Positions 1-42,150 of a DNA stretch of 64,000 bases are shown piece after piece. The translations under genes and the position numbers were made by a program. Positions within the stretch are counted from its first letter, which is position 1. Each line of letters starts with the position of its first letter. Below the pieces are notes generated by a model. That model was not told the origin of the DNA and made no database searches. It worked only from the letters and a program-made list of their open reading frames with translations. The stretch comes from Myxococcales bacterium (GTDB taxonomy: Bacteria > Myxococcota_A > Polyangia > Haliangiales > Haliangiaceae), in assembly GCA_016707895.1 (NCBI GenBank), contig JADJGV010000034.1, positions 501,625 through 565,624 of the forward strand, given 5' to 3'.

Positions 1-3000
1 GATGACGTCGTGGTCGCGCTGCTCGGCGATCAGCGACTCGAGGATGACCGCGTCGACGCGGCGATCGCTCTGCAGGATCAGGTAGGCGCCGTCGGAGGTG
101 GCGGTCGTGAAGTTGGCGGCGGCGGCGGTCTCGGTGACCTTGTTGTCGAGCAGCCGCAGGATCGCCTTGCGCTCGTCGGCGGCGTCGGCCTGCTGCGCGA
201 CCACGCCGAGCAGCCAGCCGACGGCCTCGAGCGACAGCTTGTCGGCGCCGCCGGCCTCCTTGATCAGGCCCTTGGCGCGGGCGACGTCGCGATCGCCGGC
301 GAGCATGCGGGTGTACAGCGCGTACGAGGTGATCGTCCGGCGGATGTCCTCGCCGTAGTAGTACGGGTAGCGCTGCTCGATCGTGCGCAGGTACTCGAGG
401 CCGTTGTCGAGCGGGCCGCGCTCGATGGTGAAGCCCTTGGCCTTGGCCCGCACCAGCGCGTTGACGACGTGGACCGTCAGGTACGGCCACGACTCGTAGC
501 CGCGCTGCCAGAACGGGAAGCCGCCGTCGTAGTTCTGCATGCTGTACAGGCGCTCGAGGTCCTCGCCGACCTTGGCCTCGAGCGCGGCCTTGCCGGGCAG
601 GCCCGGGGCCTTGAACGCGTCGAGCACGTCGCGCAGGTCGGCGATGCCGGCGATGCGCGAGCTGATCTGCTCGCTGCACTCGAACGGGTACGAGACCAGG
701 TACAGGAACGCGTCGGTCAGCGCCTGCAGCTGGGTCGAGGAGGTCTCGACCTGGAGGCCGCCGAACTGCGTGACCACCTGGCCGGGCAGCGCGACCGGCT
801 GCTTGATCGCGCCGTCGTCGATCTGGCCGTAGGTGGCGAAGGCCTCGGTGGTGGCCGGCGTCCAGACCGGCAGCGCGACCTCGGCGGCGTCGGAGCCGGC
901 GCTGGCCGTGCCGACGATCTGGAAGCGCGCGGTGCCGGCCAGCGCGGCGGCGGCCGGGAACCGGACCTCGACGCGATCGTTGGCGGGCACGGTGACGCGC
1001 TTGCCGCTGCCGGCGGTGAGCGTGGCGTTCGACGCGCGCACCGCGACGTCGACCGCGAGCGGCGCGTCGGTCTGGTTCTGCACCACGACCGGCAGCTCGA
1101 ACTTGTCGCCGAAGTTGAGGAACCGCGGCGGCGACGGCCGCACCATCACCGGCAGCCGCGCCGTCAGCGCGCTCTCGCCCTTGCCGAACTGCTTGTCGCC
1201 GGCGACGGCGATCGCGATGAGGCGATAGCGCGTGAGGTTGTCGGGCAAGGTCAGCGCGACGCTCGCGCTGCCGTCGGCGCCGGTCGTGACCTCGGGGGAG
1301 AACGCGGCCAGCGGGTTGATGTTGGTGCGCACCGCGATCGCCGGCGGGGGCTGGCTGCCGCCGCCGCCCGGCGTGGTCGTCGAGGGGTCGGCCAGGGCGA
1401 GGCCGTCGACGACGTACTGGTTCTCGGCGCTCGACGAGCCGGAGAACGACACGCCGGTCGAGTCGCCCTGGCTGCCGGCGGCGGCGCCGAGCGCGGACTC
1501 GAAGTTGCGGCCGCGCGTCGGGATGTTCTTGGTGAATTCGTCGGTGGGCTTCTGCGCGACCGCCAGCTGGTTGGCGTCGGGCTGCGCCAGCTTGACGAAG
1601 CCGCGCAGGCGGTGGTCGCTCGCGCCCATGTCGCGCCGCTGGTAGAAGGTGTCGATCGGGTTGGCGAACTGGTAGCCGGTGAGCGACAGCACCGCCTCGT
1701 CGACGGCGATCACCGCGACCTCGGCGCCGCTGACCGGCTTGCCGGCGGCGTCCTTGACCGTCACCGCGAGCGAGGTCTTGGCGCCAGGCGCCAGCTTGTC
1801 GGTCGGCGGCGCGATCGTCACCGCCAGCGTGCGGTGCTTGGGCGGCACCGACAGGTCGATGCTGCCGACGCCGTAGGCCGGGCGCTTGGGCAGCGCCGCG
1901 TCGGGCTGGCCGTCGTCGCCGACCCGCGCGCTCATGCCGATCAGATCGACCTGGACGTAGAGGTTGGGCGTGAAGCCGTCGGTGATCGGCACCGTCAGCT
2001 TCTGCGTCGGGCCGGTCATCGTGAACCGGGTCGAGGTGACGATGCCCGAGCGGCGGACGCTCATGACGCCCTCGGCCGGGTAGAACGGCGCCTGCACCAA
2101 CAGCTCGGCGGTGTCGCCGGGCTTGTACTCCTTGGCGTTGGGGATGAGCGTGACCTGCTCCTCCTCGACGTCGCGGGCCGGCGGGGTCTTGCCGCCCGAC
2201 ACCCACACGGTCAGCTCGGTCGAGTTCTTGCGGCCCTGGTCGTCGGTGACCACGCCGGTGATGCGGTATTGGCCGCCCTCGGGCGTCTGGAACGAGCACA
2301 GCCCGGCGGCGGCGGCCGAGGTCAGCGCGCACGCCTGGACGTCCTCCTCGGTCTCGACGTACTTGCCCTTGTCGTACTTCCAGTCGAGCCGCACCGCCTG
2401 GACGTCGATGGCCTTGCCGACCACCGCCTTGCCGTCGAGGTCGACGTCGATCGCCTCGATCTCGATGGCCTGGCCCTTGTCGACGTACGGCTTCTTGGCG
2501 CGCATGCCGACGTAGTGCGCGGCCGGGTGCACCAGCAGCGTCGTCGACGCGTTCCACGCCTGGCGGTTGACGTCGGTGACCGCCGCGTTGGCGTTGACGC
2601 TCATCGGCACGGGCGGGTTGACGCCGAGGAAGTCGAGGTGCAGCACGTGGGCGCCGGTGGCGTCGGTCTTGCCCTGGTGGTTCCAGCTCTGCGGCGCCTG
2701 GTAGCTCGGACCTTCGTCCCACCAGCGCCGGCCCCAGCCCCACCACGGCACCCACTTGCCGAACGTGAAGTCGTCGCGGTTGGGCGGCGTGAACGTCGTC
2801 TCGCTCGCGGTCAGGTACCAGTTCACCTCGGCGCCGGCGAGCCCGCCGCCGGCGAAGTAGCTGGCCTGGACCGTCACGTCGGCGCTGCCGCCGATCATCT
2901 TGATCGCGTCGTCGGCCTTGGCGCTGACCTCGTACTCGGGGCGGCGGAACTCCTGGATCTGGAAGCCGTGGTAGCCCGAGCCGCTGACCCGGCCCTTGGC

Positions 3001-5318
3001 CTCGAGCTGGATCGACGCGTAGCCGAGGTTGGGCGTCTTGGGCAGCGTGAACGCGAGGTCGAAGCCGCCGAGCGCGCTGACCTTGACGGTGCCCTTGGTG
3101 AGCTCGTTGCCGACGGGGTCGATGACCTTGTACGTCACCGACGACACCTGCCCGGCGATGCCGGCGACGTCGCCGCCCTCGCGGCCCTGGTGCACGCGCA
3201 GCCAGCCCTTGACGTGGACGTCCTCGCCCGGCCGGTACATCTGCCGGTCGTCGGTGATGTGCCACAGCAGCGAATCGGCGCGCTCCTGCTTGCGCCACTG
3301 CGGCTCGTCGGCCCAGTAGCCGTAGCCATCGGGCACGAACGCGACGTCGTCGCCCTTCTTCGCGACTAGCATGCCGGCGCCGCCCTTGCGCTGCGCCGAC
3401 AGCGCGATCACCGCGGTGCCGTCGTCGCCCGAGGTCGCCGTGAGGCCCCACGGCTCGATCGACAGCGCCGCGTCGGCGACCGCGCGCCGTCGGCCAGCTT
3501 GTTGACCCACGCGTGCAGCTCGCCGGCGTCGACCGCGGCGTCGACGCCCAGCCGGGTCGACTGCACCCACGCGATCAGCCGCGGCGGCTCGTAGCGCTCC
3601 TTCCACGGCGACGGCTCGATCACCGCGATCACGTGGCCGAGGCCGCTCTTCAGCGCGCCGGCCAGCTCGACCTTGGTCTCCGGTCAGGTCGTCGGCCGCG
3701 CCCTTCACGCGCACCAGCGTGTCGACCACCTTCTTGCCGGGCAGGCTCGGCTTCTTCCGCTGCCACTGGTTCTCGAGGTAGTTGCCGTACGCGCCGTAGT
3801 CGCTCGGCGACACCTGGTACAGCTGCACCTTCAGCGCGTCGTAGTTGGTGGTGAACACGTCGAGCGTCGGCGTCCGCGCGCCCGGGTCCAGCACCACCAG
3901 CCCCGACGGGCCGTAGAAGTTCGGGTACGCCTTGCCGGTCTTCCACGTGAGCGTCGCGTCCTTGCCCAGCGTCTGCCCGAATTGATCGAGCACGCCGCCC
4001 GACACCACCGTCTTGTAGGACGTCTGGCCCTTGGTCAGGCCTTGCACCGTGAGGTAGTTGCCGTTGGCCAGCACCTGGCTGCGCTCGATCGTCGGCGCCG
4101 TCACCACCTGCGCCGCGTCGAAGCGATCGACGTCGAGCGGGTTGTTGAACTCGATCTGGAACGGCGCGCCCGGCGGGCACTCGCCCAGCCGCACTCGGCG
4201 CGCACGATCTGGAGCGGCGGGTAGGTGTCGAAGCCGAAGCTCTGCCGATCCGGCGTCTTGTTGGGCCCCTCGGCCGACGGGGTGCCCGGGCCGATCGTCA
4301 CCTCGACGTGGGTGTCCTTGGGGAACGCCTCGGTCGCGGCGAACGCCAGCCAGCGGCCGTCCTGCTCGGCGGCCTTGGTCGCGTCGACCAGGCTCGTGAG
4401 CGTCTCGTGCTTGGCGATCTCGTCGGCGGTGAGCAGCCGCGCCGCGTAGGGCTTGCCCGCCGCGGTGATCTTGATCGTCGCCAGCACCGCGGCCGGATCG
4501 ATCCGCTGATCGAAGCGCACGAACATCGGCGCGTCGAGCTGCTGTGGGCCACCACCCGGCCAGCTGGTCTCGACCCGCGGCGTCGGCGTCGTGAACGTGA
4601 ACGTCTTGCCGGTGGCCAGCGCGTTGCCGGTCGCGCTCTTGGTGCCCTTGGCGATCTCGACCGTGTAGGTCGTCGCCTGAGGGAAGCGCACCGTCGGGTC
4701 GAAGATGATCGTCTTGGTGCTGAGCCAGCGCCAGCGCCCGGGCGGCGTCGGCGTGAGCTTGACCGGCACCACGCTCGCGGCGTCGTCCTGCGACGTCACC
4801 GCCACCATCGGCTGCGAGAACGTCAGCTGCAGCTGCGGCGCCAGCGGCACGTCGCCCTCGGGCGCCCACCGCAGGATCGTCAGCGGCTTGCCGGCGTCGT
4901 TGGTCGCCGGCGGCGGCCCCGCCTGCGGGTTCGGCACCGGGAACGTGCCCTTGATCGTCTTGCCGGTCCGCGGCGGCGGCTGCGACCGGTCGCGCAGCGC
5001 GAACGCCTGGGTGTCATCGGGCTTCGCGCCGATCGGCGACACCCGATCCAGGATCGCCTTGGCCGCGGCGTCGGTGATCGGCTGGGTCGGCGGCAAGGTC
5101 GACCGGTCGGCCGCCGGCGCCCCGGCCTTGCCGTCGGACAGCCGCATCGTCAGCCCGGGCTTGCTGCTATCGAGCGTCAGCGCCCGCCCGGGGGTGACCA
5201 CGCCGCTGCCGCCGCCGCCGGGTGGCTTGCTGCCGGCCCGCGGGCCGCACGATGCGAGGAAGGCGAGCAGGGTCGCGAGGGCGACGCCGCGGAGTGCAGG
5301 GCTGCGGTGGACCGGCAT
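1..5318 (-). CDS. Alpha-2-macroglobulin family lipoprotein (bacterial A2M, thioester type); the 3' end lies beyond the window start. As assembled the frame is broken by three 1-nt indels near 4190, 3680 and 3480, so it is a possible pseudogene or carries local sequence errors
   Basis: Hand translation of the minus strand gives a lipoprotein signal (MPVHRSPALRGVALATLLAFLASCGP) and MG-domain-like sequence (TILRWAPEGDVPLAPQLQLTFSQPMVAV). A continuous A2M-like reading covers about 3380 down to position 1 and includes YPFECSEQ (CxEQ thioester motif, about 665-676). The plus-strand 1119-aa ORF 10..3369 is the antisense artefact. The frame changes three times between 3480 and 4190. Confidence 0.85.
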
Positions 5319-5437: not shown

Positions 5438-6742
5438 TCAACGCGGGGCAGGGGCTGGGGCGGGGACGGCGGCGAGCGCGACGTCGAGCGCCGCGTGCAG
5501 CTCGCCATCGACCAGCGCGAGCTGAGTCAGGCGCGTGGTGAGCGGGTGGCCGGCGATCGTGAGCTGGACGTGGGCGACGCGCCGGCGCGTGCGATCGAGC
5601 GAGCCGACCACGAGGTACTTGACCCAGGCCGCGGCGCTGATCACCGGCGACGCGATCGCGCGCTCGAGGTCGCGGTCGAGCGCGGTCGCGCGCAGCTGGT
5701 CGCCCTCGAGGGCGATCGCGACCCGGACGCCGACCCGGAAGTACGAGCAGCCGTCGCGCTCCTGCAGCACGTGGACCTTCCACGGGTGCGCGGGATCCTC
5801 GGCGACGTAGTCGAAGCGCGGCCGGAACGCGCCGCGCGGCGTCGGGGTCAGGCTGCGATCGTACCAGCGCGGCGCGCGGCCCGACGCGATCGCCCAGTTG
5901 GCCAGCTCGGCGACGGTGCTGGCGGCGACGGCGACGCCGACATGGTCGCCCGACGCGGGCGCGGTCGGCGCGCCGAGGCCGCCCCGGATCGGCAGGCCGG
6001 TGTGGATCTCGACCAGCAGCGCCGCGGGATCGGTCAGCGAGCGGACCGCGACGTCGGCGACCGGCACGTCGGGGAGCTGCAGGCGCAGCCGGGCCACCTG
6101 GCCCAGCCGCACCAGCAGCAGATCGTGCAGGCCGCGGTACGCGGTGCCGGTGAGGTAGGTCGCGAGGCGGCTGACGGCGGCGTCGCGCAGCACCGGCGGT
6201 ACGCGGCCGCGCGCCGCCGGCGGCAACCAGCGCTCGATCGCGGCGCCGAGCGCCGCGGCGGCGTCGGGCCCGAGCGTCGGCGCGATCGCCAGCAAGTCGG
6301 CGGGGCGAACCCCGAACGCGAGCGCGACGTCGCCGTGGGCGCGCTCGACCTCGGGCGCCAGCGCGACCTCGAGCGCCAGCGTGGCGATGGTGGCGTCGTC
6401 GTCGGCGATGGCGAGCGTCACCGCGAGCTGGACGTGGCCCGGCGCGCCCGGCCGCAGCGCGACCTGGTCGAGGCGCGCGCGCAACCCGCCCGGGACGACC
6501 AGCGCCAGCGGGCCGAGCTCGGGCAGCGCCAGCGGCGCGGCCCACGGCGTCCGCGTCAGCAGCTCGGCGATCACCGCGTTGGCGCGGGCCAGCGGCACGG
6601 TGACGCGCACGTCGGGCGAGGGCGCGGTGGCCACCGCGCGGGCCGCGAGCGTCGCGCGGGCGGCGCGCACGTCGGCGCACCGCGAGCCACAGCCGGCCAG
6701 CGCCGCGGTCGTCGCGAGCAGGGCGATCAGGAGCGGGCGCAT
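5438..6742 (-). CDS. Hypothetical lipoprotein, upstream partner of the A2M gene
   Basis: 434-aa ORF with signal and lipobox (MRPLLIALLATTAALAGCGS) and non-repetitive composition. Same strand as A2M and 119 bp upstream of it. Confidence 0.7.
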   Translation of the reverse strand: MRPLLIALLATTAALAGCGSRCADVRAARATLAARAVATAPSPDVRVTVPLARANAVIAELLTRTPWAAPLALPELGPLALVVPGGLRARLDQVALRPGAPGHVQLAVTLAIADDDATIATLALEVALAPEVERAHGDVALAFGVRPADLLAIAPTLGPDAAAALGAAIERWLPPAARGRVPPVLRDAAVSRLATYLTGTAYRGLHDLLLVRLGQVARLRLQLPDVPVADVAVRSLTDPAALLVEIHTGLPIRGGLGAPTAPASGDHVGVAVAASTVAELANWAIASGRAPRWYDRSLTPTPRGAFRPRFDYVAEDPAHPWKVHVLQERDGCSYFRVGVRVAIALEGDQLRATALDRDLERAIASPVISAAAWVKYLVVGSLDRTRRRVAHVQLTIAGHPLTTRLTQLALVDGELHAALDVALAAVPAPAPAPR

Positions 6743-6828
6743 CGTGTGAATCTACGCGAGGCGCGGGGAGCGCGGCGGGCGACCCTGGTAGCATCGCGTG
6801 TCGATGATCACGGAACCGCGGGCCGCGC

Positions 6829-10248
<3,420 letters not shown>

Positions 10249-10252
<4 letters not shown>

Positions 10253-13200
10253 AGCGCACCTACGCGATCACCGTCTACGAGCGCAAGGTCGAGGGCACGC
10301 TGACCTGGACGCCGCTGGTGCCGCCGGGGTTGATCGCGGCGCTGAGCGGCAAGAGCGAGGTGCGGCTGCGCGAGCAGCTGGGCAAGCTGCTGGCCGCGGC
10401 GGTGCGCCAGGTCGAGCCCGAGCAGCACGAGCTGTTCGAGACCGCGCCCGGCACCCGGCTGCACCACGTGTCGCTGGATCTCAACCTGCGCGAGCGCGGG
10501 CGGGTCGGCGGGCGGTTCCCGCTGGTGCTCGAGCCGCGGTGGTTCACCGACGCGCGCCAGCGGCTGCTCGCGTACCACCCGGCGGATCCCAGCGCGTGGT
10601 TCGACGCCGACGACGTCCACGAGGTCGAGCGGCTGGCGGCGCACTTCGCGCGCCAGGCGTGGGCCAGCGACGACGTCACCGCGCTCGAGGCCAAGAAGAG
10701 CGCGGCCAAGGAGCGGCTGATCACGGTGTCGTTCGACCTGGCGCCGCGGACGCTGCTCGATCGCGCCAAGGCCGCGGCCGAGGGCAAGCAGCGGGCCGGG
10801 CTGGCGCGGTCGGTGCGCCAGCACCTGGCGCAGCTCGGCGTCGACCAGACCGCGCGCGCGATCGACGGCACCTTGCCGATGGGCGTGCCCCGGCCGGCCT
10901 ACCGGGCCCAGCTGGCGCGGCTCCTGGGCGGGCCGCGGCCGCGCTCGACGGTGCTGGTGGGACGTCCGGGATCCGGACGCGCGACGTTGCTGGCGCGCTG
11001 GGTCGGCGATCGGCTCGAGGCCGACGGCTGGTACCTGCACCGCAACGCCGATCGCGTGCACCGGGTGTGGCGGCTGTCGGGCAAGCGGCTGATCGCGGGC
11101 ATGCAGTACTTCGGCGACTGGGAGGACCGGCTGCTCGATCTGGTGACCGACGCCCGCGCCCACCGCGGCCTCCTGTGGTTCGACGATCTGCACCTGTTCG
11201 GGCGGCTGGGCGTGACCCGGCAGTCGGAGCGCTCGTTCGCCGACTTCTTCCGCGGCCCGGTGCAGCGCGGCGAGCTGACGATCGTCGCCACCGCGACCCG
11301 CGAGCAGCTGGCGCGGCTGGAGGACGACGCGCCGTCGTTCGCGCAGCTGTTCGCGCGGGTCGCGGTCGAGCCGACCGACGCCGCCGAGACCGCGGCGCTG
11401 ATGCTGGCCGAGGTGCGCCGGCTCGAGGCCGAGCACCCGGTCGAGGTCCACCCGTTCACGCCGCGGACGGTCTACGAGCTGGCCACCAGCCTGTACCCGT
11501 GGACCGCGACGCCGGGCGGGCCGATCGACATGCTGCGCAAGCTGGTGGCCGCCGCCGGGCCGCGGCCGGCGCCGGGGGCGCGGCGGGCGCTGCCGCCCGA
11601 GGCCGCGGTGGCGCAGGCGGCGCGCGACACCGGCCTGCCCGAGCACCTGATCACGCTCGACGCGCCGCTCGATCCGGCGGCGGTGACCGCGCACTTCGCG
11701 GCCCGGGTGATCGGCCAGGACGAGGCGGTGGCGGTGGCCACCGACGTGGTGGTCAAGGTGCGCGCCGGGTTGACCGACCCCGGGCGGCCGCTCGGCGTGT
11801 ACCTGTTCACCGGCCCCACCGGCACCGGCAAGACCGAGCTGGCCACCGCGCTGGCCGAGTACCTGTACGGCGAGCGCCGCCGGCTGGTGCGGCTCGACAT
11901 GAGCGAGCTGGCCGGCCCCGACGCGGTGGCGCGGCTGATCGGCGACCGCTTCACGCCCGACGGCCTGCTCACCAGCCGGATCCGCGAGCAGCCGTTCGCG
12001 GTGGTGCTGCTCGACGAGATCGAGAAGGCCCACCCGTCGGTGCTCGGGCTGCTCTTGCAGCTGTTCGACGAGGGCCGGCTGACCGACGCCGGCGGCGAGG
12101 TCGCGAGCTTCCGCCACGCGGTGATCGTGATGACCTCGAACCTGGGCGCGCGGGTGCAGCAGCCGATCGGGTTCGGCGACTCGACCGAGGCCGTGCTCGG
12201 GCAGATCGCCAAGGCCGTGCGCGAGTTCTTCCCGCCCGAGCTGTGGAACCGCATCGATCGCGTGGTGCGGTTCCGGCCGTTGACCGCCGAGGTCGCGGCG
12301 CGGGTGGTCGACAAGGAGCTGGCCAAGCTCCTGGGCCGGCGCGGCCTGCGCGAGCGCGACGTCTTCGTCTACGCCGGCCGGGCGGTGCGCGAGCGCGCGG
12401 TGGCGCAGGCGTTCGATCCGCGGTTCGGCGCGCGCACGGTCAAGCGCTGGCTCGAGGAGCACGTCGCCGGCGCGCTGACCGAGGCGTTGACCGAGGCGCC
12501 GCCGGCGCGGATGACCGTGGCCCGGCTGCGCGAGGAGGCCGGCGCGATCGCGGTGACGCTCGAGCTGGTGCCCGAGGCGGTCGCGTGGGGCGGCGGCTTC
12601 CCGCTGATCGAGGCCCGCGAGCTGTCGGCGGCGGCGCTGGTGCCGGCGGCCGAGGCGATGGCCGATCGCATCGACGCGCTCCTGGCCACCGATCCGGTGG
12701 GGCGGGCGCTGGCCACGTTGCGGGCCCGGCCCGACGGCGAGCGCGGGCGGTACTTCGTCGAGCACTTCGCCGACGAGCTGGCGGCGCTGCGGACGACGCT
12801 GGTCGGCCGCCGCCGGGCCCGGCCGGGGCCGATCGCGCCCGAGGCCCACGAGGAGCACGACCTCGAGGCCTGGCCGCGCGAGGCCCACGTCGAGAAGAGC
12901 GGCGCGTGGTCGCAGCGCCGCGAGGTGCGCCGCTACGATCCGCGCTCCGGCGATCGCGCGCCCAAGGCCGCCGCCGGCCAGGCGGCGACGCTGGCGGCGC
13001 TGGCGCGCGCCGAGCTGCTGCTCGGCCACGTCGACGAGCTGGCCGATCCCGACGCCCACGTCGTGACCGTGCTGGTCACGCCGGTCGGCGTGGTCGGCGG
13101 CGGGCCGCGGCCGCTGGGCTGGGGCCTGCTCGAGGCGCTGCGCGCGGTCGCCGATCAGGCGATGGCGCGCACCAAGGACGGCCGGATCGAGGCCTACCAG

Positions 13201-13613
13201 GCGCCGGCGGTCGGCCACGTGCAGCGCGCGTTCGCGGTGCGCGATCTGTTCGCGCGCGCGGCGTTCACGCCCGAGCACGGCACCCACTTCTTCCAGTCGC
13301 TCACCGACGAGCCCGAGGTGTACCGGGTCGAGGTGCGGCCCGGCGATCAGCCGCTGGCGCCGCTGCTGCGCGCGCACGCCGAGGCGCTGGCGGCGTTCGA
13401 GGCGGCGCAGGCCGCGGGCGTCGCCGGGCCGCCCAACCCCGAGGCGCTGCTGCCGGCGGTGCGGACGCTGGCGGCCGCGCCCGGGCAGCGGCCCGGCGAG
13501 GCGTTCGTCGCCGACGTCGAGGACTTCGTGATCGGCCTGGCGACCCGGCAGCACGCGGCCAGCCTGGCCGAGGTGGTGCGGGCGCTGTGGCACGTCCGCT
13601 GGAGCCACCGGCC

Positions 13614-13617
<4 letters not shown>
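10249..13617 (+). CDS. Hsp100/Clp-like AAA+ ATPase, paralog 2 (about 1122 aa). D1 P-loop is degenerate (GR in place of GK). D2 is ClpA/B-like. Long C-terminal extension
   Basis: The GTG start overlaps the paralog 1 stop (GTGA). D1 VLVGRPGSGRATLLARWVG and LLWFDDLHLFG. D2 VYLFTGPTGTGKTELATALA, VVLLDEIEKAHPSVLGLLLQLFDEGRLTD and VIVMTSNLG. Confidence 0.85.
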
Positions 13618-15884
<2,267 letters not shown>

Positions 15885-31561: not shown

Positions 31562-33025
31562 CTGACCATTGGCTACAAGTCCCCGGCGCCGTGACGGAGG
31601 GCGGTGACGGCAGCGGCGGCGGCCGCGACGCGCTCAAGCCCGCGCGTGATGATGCGGACGCCTGGTGGTCCGCCCGAGGATTTGCCCGTGTAGCCGCCGA
31701 TGTCGGCGATCCAGTAGACCAGTTGGCCGACGGTCGCGTCGGCACCGACGGTGACGCCCTTGGGCTTCCGGAGGAGGATGACGGCGTCGATCTCGTCGCG
31801 CGAGAACTCGGTCGCCGCTGGCAGTTCAGGGGTTGTGCGCGATAGCTGCTTGAGGTGTTCAGCCCGGATGGCCACGGTGGCCAAGACGGTAGCCCACTTG
31901 GTGAACGCCGCGACGCTGCGGAGCAGCGAGTCCTCGATGCCGCACGCGCCCGACTTCCAGGCCAGGTGGAACTCCTCGACGCGCCACCGCATCGTGTAGC
32001 CGACGATGACGTCGTGGGCCGCGGCCATCGTGACGACCGACCGGTTGGTCAACAGGCGCCAGTGGATCGGCTCGGCACCGTCGGGTTGATGCCGCTCGCG
32101 CGCCTCGAGCGCGGTCACCGCGAACTGCTCGAACGGGCCCATGCCCGATCGCCCGAGGGGCACGATCAGCTTGACCACACAGGCCCGAACGTCGACGAGC
32201 GCCGTGCGCGCAGCGCGGTCGCGCGTCGCGGGAACGCGCAGCGTATACGCACCCAGCCACCGGCTCGCGCCCAGGACCTCGTTGAGGCTGCGCGTCCCGG
32301 TGTCGGTTGCGACCCGCCGGTTCGACGACGCACGCACCGTGTAGGCCACGTCGAGGCGTGCGAGGTGGCGCAACACCGGCGTCGCGTCACCGCCGCGGTC
32401 GAGTTGGAACCACGGCAACGTCGCCGGCGCGAGCGCCGCCAGGGTCTCCGCACTCATCGTCAACACGTCGATCCAGCGCTGCAACTCGGTCTCTTCGACG
32501 GGCGGCCGCGCGTTGTGGGGTTGCGCGCGCTGCGACCACGACCGCGTCCAGATCGCCTGCGCACCCAGTCCGACCGGCACGCCCTCGGGACTCACGAGCA
32601 GCGCCGACACCGCCTGTAAGCCACTCACGCCGGTGTTGCGCGTCGACAGCGGCCCGAAGTGCGTGCCGGCGCGATCCGTCAGCCCCAGCGCGCTCTGGTC
32701 GACCGGGACGAACACGATGTTGAACGCCGCGGCGCTGCGCGCGCCCGCGCGAAACGCCGCCTGCTGCACTTCGTCTGCGACGACGGCGCGGTTCTCAAGC
32801 AACCGATACGCCGCCTCGCGTTCGGCGCCTTCGAAGACCTGGGTCACGCGGCCGTTGGGGCGCTCGCTCACGCCCGCGGCTATCTCGACCAACCGCGCGG
32901 TCCGTCGCGCGTCGCCGAGCGCTGCATCACCAAACGTCGACGTGGCCCACGCAAGCTGGCTATTCTGCACCTCGAGCAAATCCACGGCCTTGGGCCGAAA
33001 TTCCCGAGATGTGATCAATGGTCAG
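31562..33025 (-). mobile_element. IS4-family insertion sequence with about 11-bp terminal inverted repeats (CTGACCATTGG / CCAATGGTCAG-like) and a 10-bp target-site duplication GTCCTGGGGG
   Basis: Transposase ORF carrying the IS4 signature GYTMRWRVEEFHLAWK (Y-2-R-3-E-6-K). Terminal inverted repeats at 31562-31572 and 33015-33025. The direct repeat GTCCTGGGGG at 31552-31561 and 33026-33035 flanks the element. It sits inside a REP-like repeat copy. Confidence 0.8.
31573..33018 (-). CDS. IS4-family DDE transposase
   Basis: 481-aa ORF with the YxxRxxxE..K motif. Locally lower GC. The reported start is a TTG. Confidence 0.8.
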   Translation of the reverse strand: MITSREFRPKAVDLLEVQNSQLAWATSTFGDAALGDARRTARLVEIAAGVSERPNGRVTQVFEGAEREAAYRLLENRAVVADEVQQAAFRAGARSAAAFNIVFVPVDQSALGLTDRAGTHFGPLSTRNTGVSGLQAVSALLVSPEGVPVGLGAQAIWTRSWSQRAQPHNARPPVEETELQRWIDVLTMSAETLAALAPATLPWFQLDRGGDATPVLRHLARLDVAYTVRASSNRRVATDTGTRSLNEVLGASRWLGAYTLRVPATRDRAARTALVDVRACVVKLIVPLGRSGMGPFEQFAVTALEARERHQPDGAEPIHWRLLTNRSVVTMAAAHDVIVGYTMRWRVEEFHLAWKSGACGIEDSLLRSVAAFTKWATVLATVAIRAEHLKQLSRTTPELPAATEFSRDEIDAVILLRKPKGVTVGADATVGQLVYWIADIGGYTGKSSGGPPGVRIITRGLERVAAAAAAVTALRHGAGDL

Positions 33026-40272: not shown

Positions 40273-42150
40273 CTACGGCGCGACCGCGGCAGAACCCGTG
40301 CCCGTCCCCGAACCCGAACCCGTCGCCGTGCCCGTCCCCGATCCCGTCCCCGATCCCGATCCCGTCCCCGATCCCGTCCCCGATCCCGATCCCGTCCCCG
40401 ATCCCGATCCCGTCCCCGATCCCGTCCCCGATCCCGCGCCCACGCCGGCGTCGCCATCGTCGGCGGCCGGCGCGGCGTCCTCGGTGTCGGTGTCCTCGGT
40501 GTCGGTGTCCTCGGTGTCGGTGTCCTCGGTGTCCTCGTCCTCGTCGTCCTCGAAGTCGCCGCCGTCGTCGGCGCCGCCGTTGGCCTCGACCCAATCGGCG
40601 ATCTTCGCCGTCTCGCAGGCCTTGGCCTCATCCGGCGCCTTCTTGCGGCAGTTGGTGACGTCGGTGAACAGGCCCAGGCAGTTCTCGCGCTCGAACTCGT
40701 CCTCGATGCCCTTGCACTCGTCCTGCTTCTTGACCGTGCCGTCGGGCAGGGTGACCTCGTCGACGTTGATCACCGCCTGGGCGCTGGACTTCACCACCGC
40801 CACCAGGCCGTCGAGGGTCCCGGTGGGCTTGGGCGGCGGCACCACGGTCAGGCTCGGCACGTAGGTCACGATCAACAGCGCCGCCATCACGGTGAACATG
40901 AATGGCAAGGTCGCGACCGTGACCTCCAGCAACGGTTTTCGAAACTTGAAGCTGGAGATGAACAGGTTGAGGCCGATCGGTGGGTGCAGGTAGCCGATCT
41001 CGAGGTTGAGCAAGAAGATCACGCCGAGGTGGTACGGGCTGACGTCGTACTCGTGGGCCACGGGCGCGATCAGCGGCACGACGATCAAGATCGCCGAGAA
41101 GATGTCCATGACCATGCCGGTCAGGAGCAAGAGCCCGTTGAGCGCCAGCAGGAACGCCCACCGCGAGTCGATGTGGTCGCGGGTCCAGTGCACCAGCTTG
41201 GCGGGGACGCCCGCGGTCACCAGGTAGTTGGTCAGCGCGGTCGCCGAGTAGATGATGATGAAGATCGCGCCGATCAGCGCCATCGACTCCTTGGTGATGG
41301 CCCACAGCGCCTGGGGCTTGAGGTCGCGGAAGATGCCCATCTCGACGATGATCAGGTACAGCACCGTCAGCGACGCGATCTGCGAGATGTCGCCGACGCC
41401 CTTGGCCAGGCCCAGCAAGATCAAGATCGGCAGGAAGATCACCGGCAGCGCGCCGGGCAGCGAGGCGAACAGCTCGCCCCACTCGAACTTCTGGCGCGGC
41501 ACCTTCTTGATGATCGCGATCGCCACCACCAGCGCCGACAGCATCAGGATCAGCAGCGCGCCCGGGATGATGCCGGCGAAGTAGAAGCGCTCGGTGGCCC
41601 ACTCCCATTGCCAGTTCTCGGGCTTGGGCTGGATGCGCTGCAGGCCATAGATCGTGCCGAACAGGATGATCGGCAGGGCCGGCGGGAACAGCAGGCCGAC
41701 CGAGCCGGTGCCGGTCACCAGGCCGAGCGCGAACCGCTCGGGGTACCGCTGCTTGATCAGCGCCGGCATCAACAGGCCGCCGAGCGCGACGATCGTGACG
41801 CCCGAGGCGCCGGTGAACGTGGTGTACACCGAGCACGCCAGGATCGTGACGATGCCGAGCCCGCCCGGCACCCAGCCCAGCGCGGCGTTGGCGAAGCGCA
41901 CCAGCCGCTCGGCGGTCTTCGACGCGGCCATCACGTAGCCGGCGTAGATGAACAGCGGGATGCTCGAGAAGATCGTCGACTTGTCGCCGGTGCCGAGGCT
42001 GAAGAACTCGTAGGCGAAGCCGCCGAAGTCCTTCTCGAAGCCCTTGGTGCCGGTCTCGGCGCCGATCGCGGTCAAGAACAACATCACCGCGAACAGCGGC
42101 GAGCCGGCGACGAACGCCAGCACCAGCAGGATGATCAGGAGCGTCAGCAT
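40273..42150 (-). CDS. dctM: TRAP transporter large permease DctM with an unusual C-terminal extension of about 190 aa (Cys-rich segment, acidic TEDTD repeats, GSGTGSG repeats)
   Basis: DctM-like polytopic core followed by DECKGIEDEFERENCLGLFTDVTNCRKK...ACETAKI, then EDTDTEDTDTEDTDTED and GSGTGSGTGSGSGTGSG encoded by DNA tandem repeats. Confidence 0.8.
   Translation of the reverse strand: MLTLLIILLVLAFVAGSPLFAVMLFLTAIGAETGTKGFEKDFGGFAYEFFSLGTGDKSTIFSSIPLFIYAGYVMAASKTAERLVRFANAALGWVPGGLGIVTILACSVYTTFTGASGVTIVALGGLLMPALIKQRYPERFALGLVTGTGSVGLLFPPALPIILFGTIYGLQRIQPKPENWQWEWATERFYFAGIIPGALLILMLSALVVAIAIIKKVPRQKFEWGELFASLPGALPVIFLPILILLGLAKGVGDISQIASLTVLYLIIVEMGIFRDLKPQALWAITKESMALIGAIFIIIYSATALTNYLVTAGVPAKLVHWTRDHIDSRWAFLLALNGLLLLTGMVMDIFSAILIVVPLIAPVAHEYDVSPYHLGVIFLLNLEIGYLHPPIGLNLFISSFKFRKPLLEVTVATLPFMFTVMAALLIVTYVPSLTVVPPPKPTGTLDGLVAVVKSSAQAVINVDEVTLPDGTVKKQDECKGIEDEFERENCLGLFTDVTNCRKKAPDEAKACETAKIADWVEANGGADDGGDFEDDEDEDTEDTDTEDTDTEDTDTEDAAPAADDGDAGVGAGSGTGSGTGSGSGTGSGSGTGSGTGSGSGTGSGTGTATGSGSGTGTGSAAVAP
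40290..40560. repeat. Coding hexanucleotide and 12-bp tandem repeats (GATCCC/GTCCCC units and gtcctcggtgtcggt units) that encode the DctM tail
   Basis: Directly visible periodic DNA. GC is locally lower. Confidence 0.7.

What the first reader, a model, noticed from the sequence alone, without database searches (positions are those of the whole stretch)
3470..4200. Cluster of three single-nucleotide indels disrupting the A2M gene
The A2M coding frame, followed by hand translation, switches three times within about 700 bp. A missing base near 4190 turns ...RAECGWG-ECPPGAPFQIEF into the wrong frame. An extra base near 3680 turns DDLT-ETKVELAGALKSG into DDLTGDQ. A missing base near 3480 turns ADGA-AVADAALSIEP into ADGARSPT. 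Elsewhere the gene reads cleanly for more than 1100 codons. This is either a genuine pseudogene of an otherwise intact periplasmic-defence gene or a local burst of assembly errors. Which it is matters for any functional claim about the locus.
Basis: seen in the sequence. Interest (0 to 1): 0.55.

Follow-up and report, generated by a model that had tools for sequence, protein, structure and literature searches.

The report
Assembly indel errors splitting an A2M gene
Three single-base insertions or deletions do break a bacterial alpha-2-macroglobulin gene in this sequence, but comparison with many related assemblies indicates they are leftover long-read sequencing errors, so the gene is most likely intact in the organism.

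Summary
The alpha-2-macroglobulin (A2M) gene lies on the minus strand, starting at ATG 5318 and running off the left edge of the window. It changes reading frame three times. One base is missing at 4184-4186, where the window has CCC and relatives have CCCC. One base is extra at 3680-3681 (CC versus C). One base is missing at 3482 (G versus GG).

I found a fourth indel of the same kind at 7035-7037, in the neighbouring AAA+ ATPase gene. No other frame break occurs in the remaining ~57 kb (19,157 codons checked).

The best explanation is a local patch of unpolished long-read consensus errors, not a pseudogene:
- A sister assembly, P0003, is identical to the repaired protein for 827 residues and reads through all three sites. 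It then has a different frameshift of its own.
- Eight near-identical assemblies each break this gene at different positions.
- Sixteen other relatives read the gene in one frame.
- Third-codon-position G+C (GC3, 97-99%) and dN/dS (about 0.2) show no decay in the shifted segments.
- The sister assembly comes from a Nanopore/CANU activated-sludge study whose polishing step kept unpolished windows.

Read-level data could not be checked, so a very recent genuine inactivation remains possible at about 7%. Interest is low.

The parts
4185..5318 (-). A2M gene, codons 1-378. It starts at ATG 5318 and has a lipoprotein signal (LAFLASC, Cys24). In the window this frame continues as out-of-frame sequence to a stop at 4101, giving a 405-aa product.
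   Evidence: ORF 4101..5318. The product is identical to P0124 / MBK7197990.1. It matches the repaired protein for 378 residues.
4184..4186 (-). Indel 1: one base is missing. The + strand has CCC where relatives have CCCC; the minus strand G run is GGG instead of GGGG. This destroys codon 379 (Gly).
   Evidence: Alignments to L037, L038, L039, L040 and L044. P0001, P0002, P0003 and P0122 read AECGWGECPPG.
3682..4182 (-). A2M gene, codons 380-546, shifted by one base relative to the first part.
   Evidence: GC3 phase. The translation matches homologues.
3680..3681 (-). Indel 2: one base is extra. The + strand has CC where relatives have C; the minus strand reads ACCGGAGACC instead of ACCGAGACC.
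   Evidence: Alignments to L013, L037, L038, L039, L040 and L044. In 123 homologues a single alignment runs unbroken across this site.
3483..3680 (-). A2M gene, codons 547-612, back in the phase of the first part. If frame 0 is read straight through, this stretch gives about 67 out-of-frame residues with no stop codon.
   Evidence: GC3 segment 3489-3680 lies in ORF 3408..3683. Translations.
3481..3482 (-). Indel 3: one base is missing. The + strand has G where relatives have GG; the minus strand reads GCGCGGTC instead of GCGCCGGTC. This destroys codon 613 (Pro).
   Evidence: Alignments to L013, L037, L038, L039 and L044. P0003, P0001, P0121 and P0122 read KLADGAPVADA.
1..3480 (-). A2M gene, codons 614-1773. 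This part contains the MG2, bait-region (A2M_BRD) and A2M domains and the CSEQ thioester motif at residue 1548. The gene runs off the left edge of the window; intact orthologues are about 2035 codons long.
   Evidence: Single uninterrupted GC3 phase, GC3 0.989. Pfam hits. CSEQ position. Orthologue ORF lengths in L001, L017 and L041.
7035..7037 (+). Fourth indel of the same kind, outside the finding. There is one extra C (CCC versus CC) in the N-terminal region of the neighbouring ClpB/ClpA-like AAA+ ATPase gene. It cuts about 72 N-terminal codons (6808-7034) away from ORF 7043..10252.
   Evidence: Frame translations. Alignments to L037, L039 and L040. Deleting one C restores ...ARYFVPAGLEVVAIAVPL..., identical to the L037 protein.

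Best explanation
The three indels, plus a fourth at 7035-7037, are residual consensus errors in a metagenome-assembled genome built from error-prone long reads. In the organism the A2M gene is most likely one intact ORF of about 2035 codons. It would encode a thioester-containing, lipoprotein-anchored alpha-2-macroglobulin.

The window matches a Myxococcales/Haliangiaceae MAG contig of 941,544 bp. This match is shown: its 405-aa truncated product is the public protein MBK7197990.1.

Sister assemblies of the same species come from a Nanopore/CANU pipeline. That pipeline polished with Racon, then medaka, then one round of Racon with Illumina reads, using --include-unpolished. This is shown for the sister MAG JADJFN and inferred for the window's own MAG.

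The likely mechanism is inferred. A few polishing windows around 3.4-7.1 kb lacked usable short-read support. Possible causes are extreme G+C or co-occurring strains that are 93-98% identical. Plus-or-minus-one length errors in short G/C runs would then survive locally while the rest of the contig was corrected.

The practical consequence is annotation damage. The gene is deposited as a 405-aa fragment, probably followed by a long second CDS carrying about 67 residues of out-of-frame sequence.
For: 1. P0003 (MBK7070948.1) is identical to the repaired window protein for the first 827 residues. It reads through all three sites, then has its own frameshift where the window is intact.
2. Eight assemblies at 93-100% identity each break this gene at different positions, and none is shared. 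The positions are: window 379/546/613; P0003 827; P0122 ~903; P0001 ~1474 onward; P0002 ~1341 onward; P0123 709 onward; P0036 564; P0121 777.
3. Sixteen other related contigs carry the gene in a single frame over their whole overlap. Several of them have SPAdes- or MEGAHIT-style contig names. L044 is 95.6% identical over 4.5 kb and differs in length only at the three sites plus one in-frame 3-nt indel.
4. In 122-123 homologues a single alignment runs unbroken across each junction.
5. There is no sign of decay. GC3 is 0.97-0.99 in every piece. dN/dS inside codons 379-612 is 0.18-0.23, against about 0.27 outside. There are no amino-acid differences from P0003.
6. All four indels are plus-or-minus-one changes in G/C runs.
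7. The fourth indel lies in a different, divergently oriented gene, so the burst is regional rather than gene-specific.
8. The provenance of P0003 is established. Its contig length, 1,741,108 bp, equals MaxContigBP of MAG Bjer_18-Q3-R1-45_MAXAC.048 (JADJFN, Haliangiaceae g__UBA2376) in Supplementary Data 3 of PMC8012365. That study's methods describe CANU, Racon, medaka and Racon-Illumina with --include-unpolished.
9. PMC9262707 states that such assemblies need short-read polishing to remove homopolymer-derived indels.
Against: No reads were available, so the error is inferred rather than observed.

The rest of the window (about 57 kb, 19,157 codons) has no frame breaks. The assembly is therefore well polished overall, and a local cause has to be assumed.

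The runs involved are short (1-4 bases), not the long homopolymers most typical of Nanopore errors.

The window's own MAG was not identified by accession. Its membership in the same Nanopore project rests on a neighbouring protein-accession series, its contig size and the species match.

A very recent genuine inactivation would also leave no decay signal.
Confidence: 0.88

Rival explanations
1. This is a genuine, very recent pseudogene. In this strain the A2M gene, and the N-terminus of the adjacent AAA+ gene, really acquired single-base indels. The A2M would then be non-functional or split.
For: The indels are present in the deposited sequence, and the truncated 405-aa product is a public protein record. 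They are significantly clustered while the rest of the window is clean. A second copy of the gene, 98% identical, exists (P0001). Its accession lies about 2,500 away from the window's product and may belong to the same MAG. That copy could make this one redundant.
Against: The 100%-identical sister assembly is intact at all three sites. Three or four independent indels with no amino-acid substitution in 827 residues is not what neutral decay produces. From general knowledge, substitutions outnumber indels several-fold in bacterial pseudogenes. GC3 and dN/dS show no relaxation. Every other long-read-style assembly of the gene, including the putative second copy, carries its own different breaks. 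That fits one technical cause better than eight independent inactivations.
Confidence: 0.07
2. This is a strain-mixture consensus artefact rather than a raw-read error. Two or more co-occurring haplotypes, 93-98% identical, were collapsed. The assembler or polisher then produced chimeric plus-or-minus-one lengths where the haplotypes align ambiguously.
For: Several close variants of this locus exist in the same kind of sample: P0001 and P0122 at about 98%, P0002 and P0123 at about 93%. The bait region and signal peptide differ sharply between them. The two species-cluster MAGs have CheckM strain heterogeneity of 17-29% in Supplementary Data 3.
Against: At the four sites all relatives agree with each other on run length, so there is no haplotype length polymorphism to mix. 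This is a sub-type of the best explanation, not a biological alternative.
Confidence: 0.04
3. The frame structure is functional. It could reflect programmed ribosomal frameshifting, or phase variation by slipped-strand mispairing that regulates A2M expression.
For: The indels lie in mononucleotide runs. Indels 2 and 3 compensate each other, and frame 0 stays open from 5013 to 1.
Against: The runs are only 1-4 bases long, far below the tracts of about 7 or more that support phase variation (general knowledge). No relative at any distance shares the frame structure. Three shifts would be needed within one gene. The fourth indel is in another gene.
Confidence: 0.01

Closest known systems
Residual homopolymer indels in Nanopore (R9-era) metagenome-assembled genomes, which split genes into truncated ORFs
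   Same: The indels are single-base changes in mononucleotide runs. They fragment an otherwise conserved gene and are not reproducible between assemblies. They are absent from the other related assemblies that read the gene in one frame, several of which have short-read-style contig names. The sister MAG comes from a CANU/Racon/medaka pipeline (PMC8012365). The general problem is described in PMC9262707.
   Different: The runs are short (1-4 bases) and the errors are confined to a 3.6-kb patch of an otherwise clean 64-kb window. This points to locally failed polishing rather than a uniformly high error rate.
Bacterial alpha-2-macroglobulin of the thioester-containing, lipoprotein-anchored type (E. 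coli YfhM/ECAM-like)
   Same: It has an N-terminal lipobox, Big_5, MG2 and bMG3 domains, a bait-region domain, an A2M domain and a CxEQ thioester motif (CSEQ).
   Different: At about 2035 residues it is longer than the roughly 1650 residues I recall for YfhM. No pbpC partner is seen next to the orthologue in L001. The C-terminal part is off the window.
Genuine bacterial pseudogenes with multiple frameshifts
   Same: There are several frame-disrupting indels within one gene.
   Different: There are no accompanying substitutions, no stop codons in the original frame, no loss of codon bias, and the breaks are not shared with the nearest relative.

Membership tests
Bacterial alpha-2-macroglobulin (thioester type) | Macroglobulin, bait-region and A2M domains | tested here: met
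   On the repaired protein, Pfam finds A2M_BRD (3.6e-19), A2M (1.1e-16), MG2 (5.5e-14) and Big_5 (1.3e-18), all above their cut-offs. bMG3 is weak.
Bacterial alpha-2-macroglobulin (thioester type) | CxEQ thioester motif | tested here: met
   CSEQ at residue 1548, in the context YPFECSEQISSR.
Bacterial alpha-2-macroglobulin (thioester type) | N-terminal lipoprotein signal (lipobox Cys) | tested here: met
   MPVHRSPALRGVALATLLAFLASCGP has lipobox LASC. This was read from the sequence; no signal-peptide predictor was run.
Bacterial alpha-2-macroglobulin (thioester type) | C-terminal thioester domain and MG10 / receptor-binding-like domain | not testable with these tools
   The last ~260 codons lie beyond the window edge. 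Relatives carry PF17973 (bMG10) and PF07678.
Bacterial alpha-2-macroglobulin (thioester type) | Operon partner pbpC (feature of the YfhM type) | tested here: inconclusive
   The downstream region is off the window. In orthologous locus L001 the next gene is a convergent amidohydrolase, not a PBP.
Genuine pseudogene | The disrupting mutations are present in the organism's DNA (read or Sanger support) | not testable with these tools
   No reads are available.
Genuine pseudogene | Relaxed selection: loss of codon bias, raised dN/dS, accompanying substitutions or stops | tested here: not met
   GC3 is 0.97-0.99 in all pieces. dN/dS is 0.18-0.23 inside against about 0.27 outside. There are 0 differences from P0003 in 827 residues.
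Genuine pseudogene | Lesions shared by independent assemblies of the same lineage | tested here: not met
   None of P0001, P0002, P0003, P0121-P0123, L013, L039, L040 or L044 has any of the three indels.
Long-read consensus indel artefact | Single-base length change in a mononucleotide run | tested here: met
   The changes are G4 to G3, G1 to G2, C2 to C1 (minus strand) and C2 to C3 at 7035.
Long-read consensus indel artefact | Not reproducible: each assembly has different breaks, and short-read-style assemblies have none | tested here: met
   Break positions per assembly. Sixteen relatives read in a single frame.
Long-read consensus indel artefact | The source assembly was made from error-prone long reads | tested here: inconclusive
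   This is shown for sister MAG JADJFN by its contig length of 1,741,108 bp, using CANU Nanopore with Racon, medaka and Racon-Illumina. The window's own MAG (contig 941,544 bp, MBK7197990.1) is inferred to belong to the same project, but it was not found in the truncated supplementary table.
Programmed frameshift / phase variation | Frame structure conserved in orthologues, or a long slippery tract | tested here: not met
   In 122-123 homologues a single alignment runs unbroken across each junction. The runs are 4 bases or shorter.

The most novel reading that the evidence does not exclude
The indels are real. One strain of an activated-sludge Haliangiaceae bacterium would then have very recently inactivated its periplasmic-defence alpha-2-macroglobulin, and truncated the adjacent AAA+ ATPase, through a local burst of single-base indels. 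Possible causes are error-prone repair of a localised lesion, or redundancy with a 98%-identical second copy.
Probability: 0.06. Interest if true: 0.3.

Novelty: not a real feature. Interest (0 to 1): 0.08.

Why it matters
The value is mainly practical. The public record splits a gene of about 2035 codons into a 405-aa 'Ig-like domain-containing protein' and, probably, a second CDS carrying about 67 residues of out-of-frame sequence. The neighbouring AAA+ gene loses about 72 N-terminal residues.

This applies to statements such as 'A2M is a pseudogene in this lineage', to domain architecture and to protein clustering.

The case also shows a useful test. In genomes with extreme G+C, GC3 phase together with cross-assembly comparison pinpoints residual indels to the base, and polishing failures can be local rather than uniform.

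The finding opens no new biology.

Tried and rejected
- **Exact look-ups.** Looking up the 405-aa ORF, P0003 and P0001 in the gene-position index found nothing. DNA of the NCBI sister MAGs could therefore not be compared base by base, and I used protein sequences and JGI/GTDB contigs instead.
- **Genome-collection scan.** It returned no contig of the same species except a 2-kb mis-binned fragment, L013. The species representative appears to be absent or masked.
- **Candidate frameshift near 40445.** The GC3 scan flagged it. It is a low-complexity Gly/Ser/Thr-rich C-terminal tail that ends at a normal stop, not a frameshift.
- **Weak coding signal at 31.5-33.1 kb.** This is a Tn5/IS4-like transposase gene, not a broken gene.
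- **Hidden compensated frameshifts.** A search inside all 41 coding segments found none.
- **Apparent out-of-frame stretch in P0001 at residues 1252-1323.** This is the hypervariable bait region, not a frameshift.
- **Supplementary table search.** I looked for contig lengths 941,544 and 330,091 to name the window's own MAG. They were not found: the table lists only the longest contig per MAG and is truncated as stored.
- **Rfam and tRNA scans.** Neither found anything in the window.
- **Shared sequence motif.** By eye I saw no motif common to the four indel sites, for example a methylation site.

Full report
**What is there**

The window is extremely G+C-rich (70-79%). Third codon positions are 97-99% G+C, so the coding phase can be read directly from composition.

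The gene in question lies on the minus strand. It starts at ATG 5318 with a lipoprotein-type signal peptide (MPVHRSPALRGVALATLLAFLASCGP) and runs off the left edge of the window.

The GC3 phase flips at about 4190, 3685 and 3485. The real reading frame is:
- 5318-4185: codons 1-378
- 4182-3682: codons 380-546
- 3680-3483: codons 547-612
- 3480-1: codons 614-1773

Pfam on the repaired protein finds Big_5, bMG3 (weak), MG2, A2M_BRD and A2M domains. A CSEQ thioester motif sits at residue 1548. The alpha-2-macroglobulin identification is therefore sound. Intact orthologues are about 2035 codons long, so roughly 260 codons lie beyond the window.

**The indels at base resolution**

I aligned the window to six related contigs. 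They are L013, L037, L038, L039, L040 and L044, at 83-96% nucleotide identity, and come from JGI and GTDB collections. The alignments place each lesion exactly:
- The window lacks one base in the + strand C run 4184-4186 (minus strand TGGGGCGAG reads TGGGCGAG). Gly379 is lost.
- It has one extra base at 3680-3681 (ACCGAGACC reads ACCGGAGACC).
- It lacks one base at 3482 (GCGCCGGTC reads GCGCGGTC). Pro613 is lost.

L044 is 95.6% identical over 4.5 kb. It differs in length from the window only at these three sites, plus one in-frame 3-nt indel in the bait region.

Minus-strand frame 0 is open from 5013 to 1. Indels 2 and 3 therefore cancel each other for a gene caller. The deposited annotation would be a 405-aa fragment and a long second CDS carrying about 67 out-of-frame residues.

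**A fourth indel, and nothing elsewhere**

The same comparison exposed one extra C at 7035-7037 (CCC versus CC). It lies in the neighbouring, divergently oriented ClpB/ClpA-like AAA+ gene. Removing it restores an N-terminus identical to that of L037.

I scanned all 41 coding segments of the window (19,157 codons) for out-of-phase dips and found none. Two earlier suspects were cleared:
- A candidate near 40445 is a low-complexity Gly/Ser/Thr tail.
- A region of weak coding signal at 31.5-33.1 kb is a Tn5-like transposase.

All four indels thus lie within 3.55 kb of a 64-kb window (P about 0.0006). Three lie within 703 bp (P about 0.0015). The burst is local and spans two genes.

**Real or artefact**

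The protein search was decisive.

P0124 (MBK7197990.1) is a 405-aa product on a 941,544-bp contig of a 'Myxococcales bacterium' MAG. It is exactly the window's truncated product, which identifies the source record.

P0003 (MBK7070948.1, contig 1,741,108 bp) is identical to the repaired window protein for its first 827 residues. It passes cleanly through all three sites, then goes out of frame where the window is intact.

Six further near-identical proteins (93-98% identity) each go out of frame at their own positions, and none is shared:

| Assembly | Approximate frame breaks (window residue numbering) |
|---|---|
| Window / P0124 | 379, 546, 613 |
| P0003 | 827 |
| P0122 | ~903 |
| P0001 | ~1474 onward |
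| P0002 | ~1341 onward |
| P0123 | 709 onward |
| P0036 | 564 |
| P0121 | 777 |

Other evidence points the same way:
- Sixteen other related contigs carry the gene in a single frame across their whole overlap. Several have SPAdes- or MEGAHIT-style names.
- In 122-123 homologues a single alignment runs unbroken across each junction.
- The shifted segments show no decay. GC3 is unchanged. dN/dS inside codons 379-612 is 0.18-0.23 against about 0.27 outside.

Eight independent inactivations of a gene that is otherwise under purifying selection is far less parsimonious than one technical cause.

**Provenance and mechanism**

P0003's contig length equals MaxContigBP of MAG Bjer_18-Q3-R1-45_MAXAC.048. 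This MAG is JADJFN, classified as Myxococcota; Haliangiales; Haliangiaceae; g__UBA2376, with Illumina coverage 42.5x and Nanopore coverage 26.2x. It is listed in Supplementary Data 3 of PMC8012365. A second MAG of the same species cluster, Damh_18-Q3-R51-60_BATAC.454, has coverages of only 23x and 14x.

Another frameshifted cluster member, P0122, is labelled Candidatus Vicinibacter affinis. That species was named from the same MAG set (PMC9304909).

That study assembled Nanopore reads with CANU. It polished with Racon, two rounds of medaka and one round of Racon with Illumina reads, each Racon step using --include-unpolished. PMC9262707 states that such assemblies need short-read polishing to remove homopolymer-derived indels.

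I infer, but cannot show, that a few polishing windows around 3.4-7.1 kb lacked usable short-read support. Extreme G+C or multi-mapping among co-occurring 93-98% identical strains could be the cause. Those windows would then have been kept unpolished.

That the window's own MAG belongs to this project is also an inference. It rests on the neighbouring accession series, the contig size and the species match.

**Alternatives**

- **Genuine, very recent pseudogene.** This cannot be excluded without reads. It requires three or four indels with no substitutions relative to the sister assembly, and it leaves the other assemblies' unrelated breaks unexplained. I give it about 7%.
- **Strain-mixture consensus artefact.** This is a technical variant of the main explanation. 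It is weakened because all relatives agree on run length at the four sites.
- **Programmed frameshifting or phase variation.** This is excluded by the short runs (4 bases or fewer) and by the absence of the frame structure in every homologue.

**Verdict**

The feature is an artefact of the deposited sequence rather than biology, and interest is low. The useful outputs are the exact repair (add C at 4184-4186, remove C at 3680-3681, add G at 3482, remove C at 7035-7037) and the warning for annotation-based claims at this locus.

Noticed in passing
window 7035-7037 (gene 6808-10252, + strand): A fourth single-base indel (CCC versus CC in L037, L039 and L040) cuts about 72 N-terminal codons off the first AAA+ ATPase gene. 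Deleting one C restores a protein N-terminus identical to the L037 orthologue.
   Followed up: yes
window 7043-10252, 10249-13617, 13614-15884 (+ strand): There are three tandem genes with overlapping stop and start codons. All encode ClpB/ClpA/ClpV-like double AAA+ ATPases (1069, 1122 and 756 aa). They score far below the curated cut-offs of every named Clp family. The arrangement is conserved next to the A2M gene in L037 and L039. The function of this triple AAA+ module is unknown.
   Followed up: partly
window 1351-1566 (A2M codons ~1252-1323, bait region): The bait region is hypervariable between strains. P0001 is about 98% identical elsewhere but has a completely different Pro/Ala-rich sequence here, while P0002 shares the window's type. 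The signal peptides also fall into two types (MPVHRSPALRG... versus MHRSFAIRCVA...).
   Followed up: partly
window 31573-33018 (- strand): A 481-aa Tn5/IS4-like transposase (Tnp_DNA_bind, DDE_Tnp_1, Dimer_Tnp_Tn5). Its GC3 signal is clearly weaker than in the surrounding genes, which suggests a recently acquired insertion sequence.
   Followed up: partly
window 5438-6742 (- strand): A 434-aa predicted lipoprotein (MRPLLIALLATTAALAGCGS...) lies between the A2M and AAA+ genes. It has no Pfam or NCBIfam hit. The corresponding DNA also aligns in L037 and L039.
   Followed up: partly
window 40273-40460 (- strand): A gene ends in a long low-complexity (Gly-Ser/Gly-Thr)n tail. This mimics a frame change in GC3-phase scans but is not a frameshift.
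   Followed up: yes
P0001 (MBK7195532.1, contig 330,091 bp) versus the window product P0124 (MBK7197990.1, contig 941,544 bp): The two accessions are only about 2,500 apart, so both 98%-identical A2M copies may sit in the same MAG. That would mean either a recent duplication or two co-binned strains. This is relevant to polishing ambiguity.
   Followed up: no
L037 11160-13054 (corresponds to window ~3620-1775); L038 throughout: The JGI contigs Ga0558717_27121 and Ga0558719_38999 carry dozens of single-base insertions relative to the window and to short-read-style contigs. These public contigs are far more error-laden than the window.
   Followed up: partly
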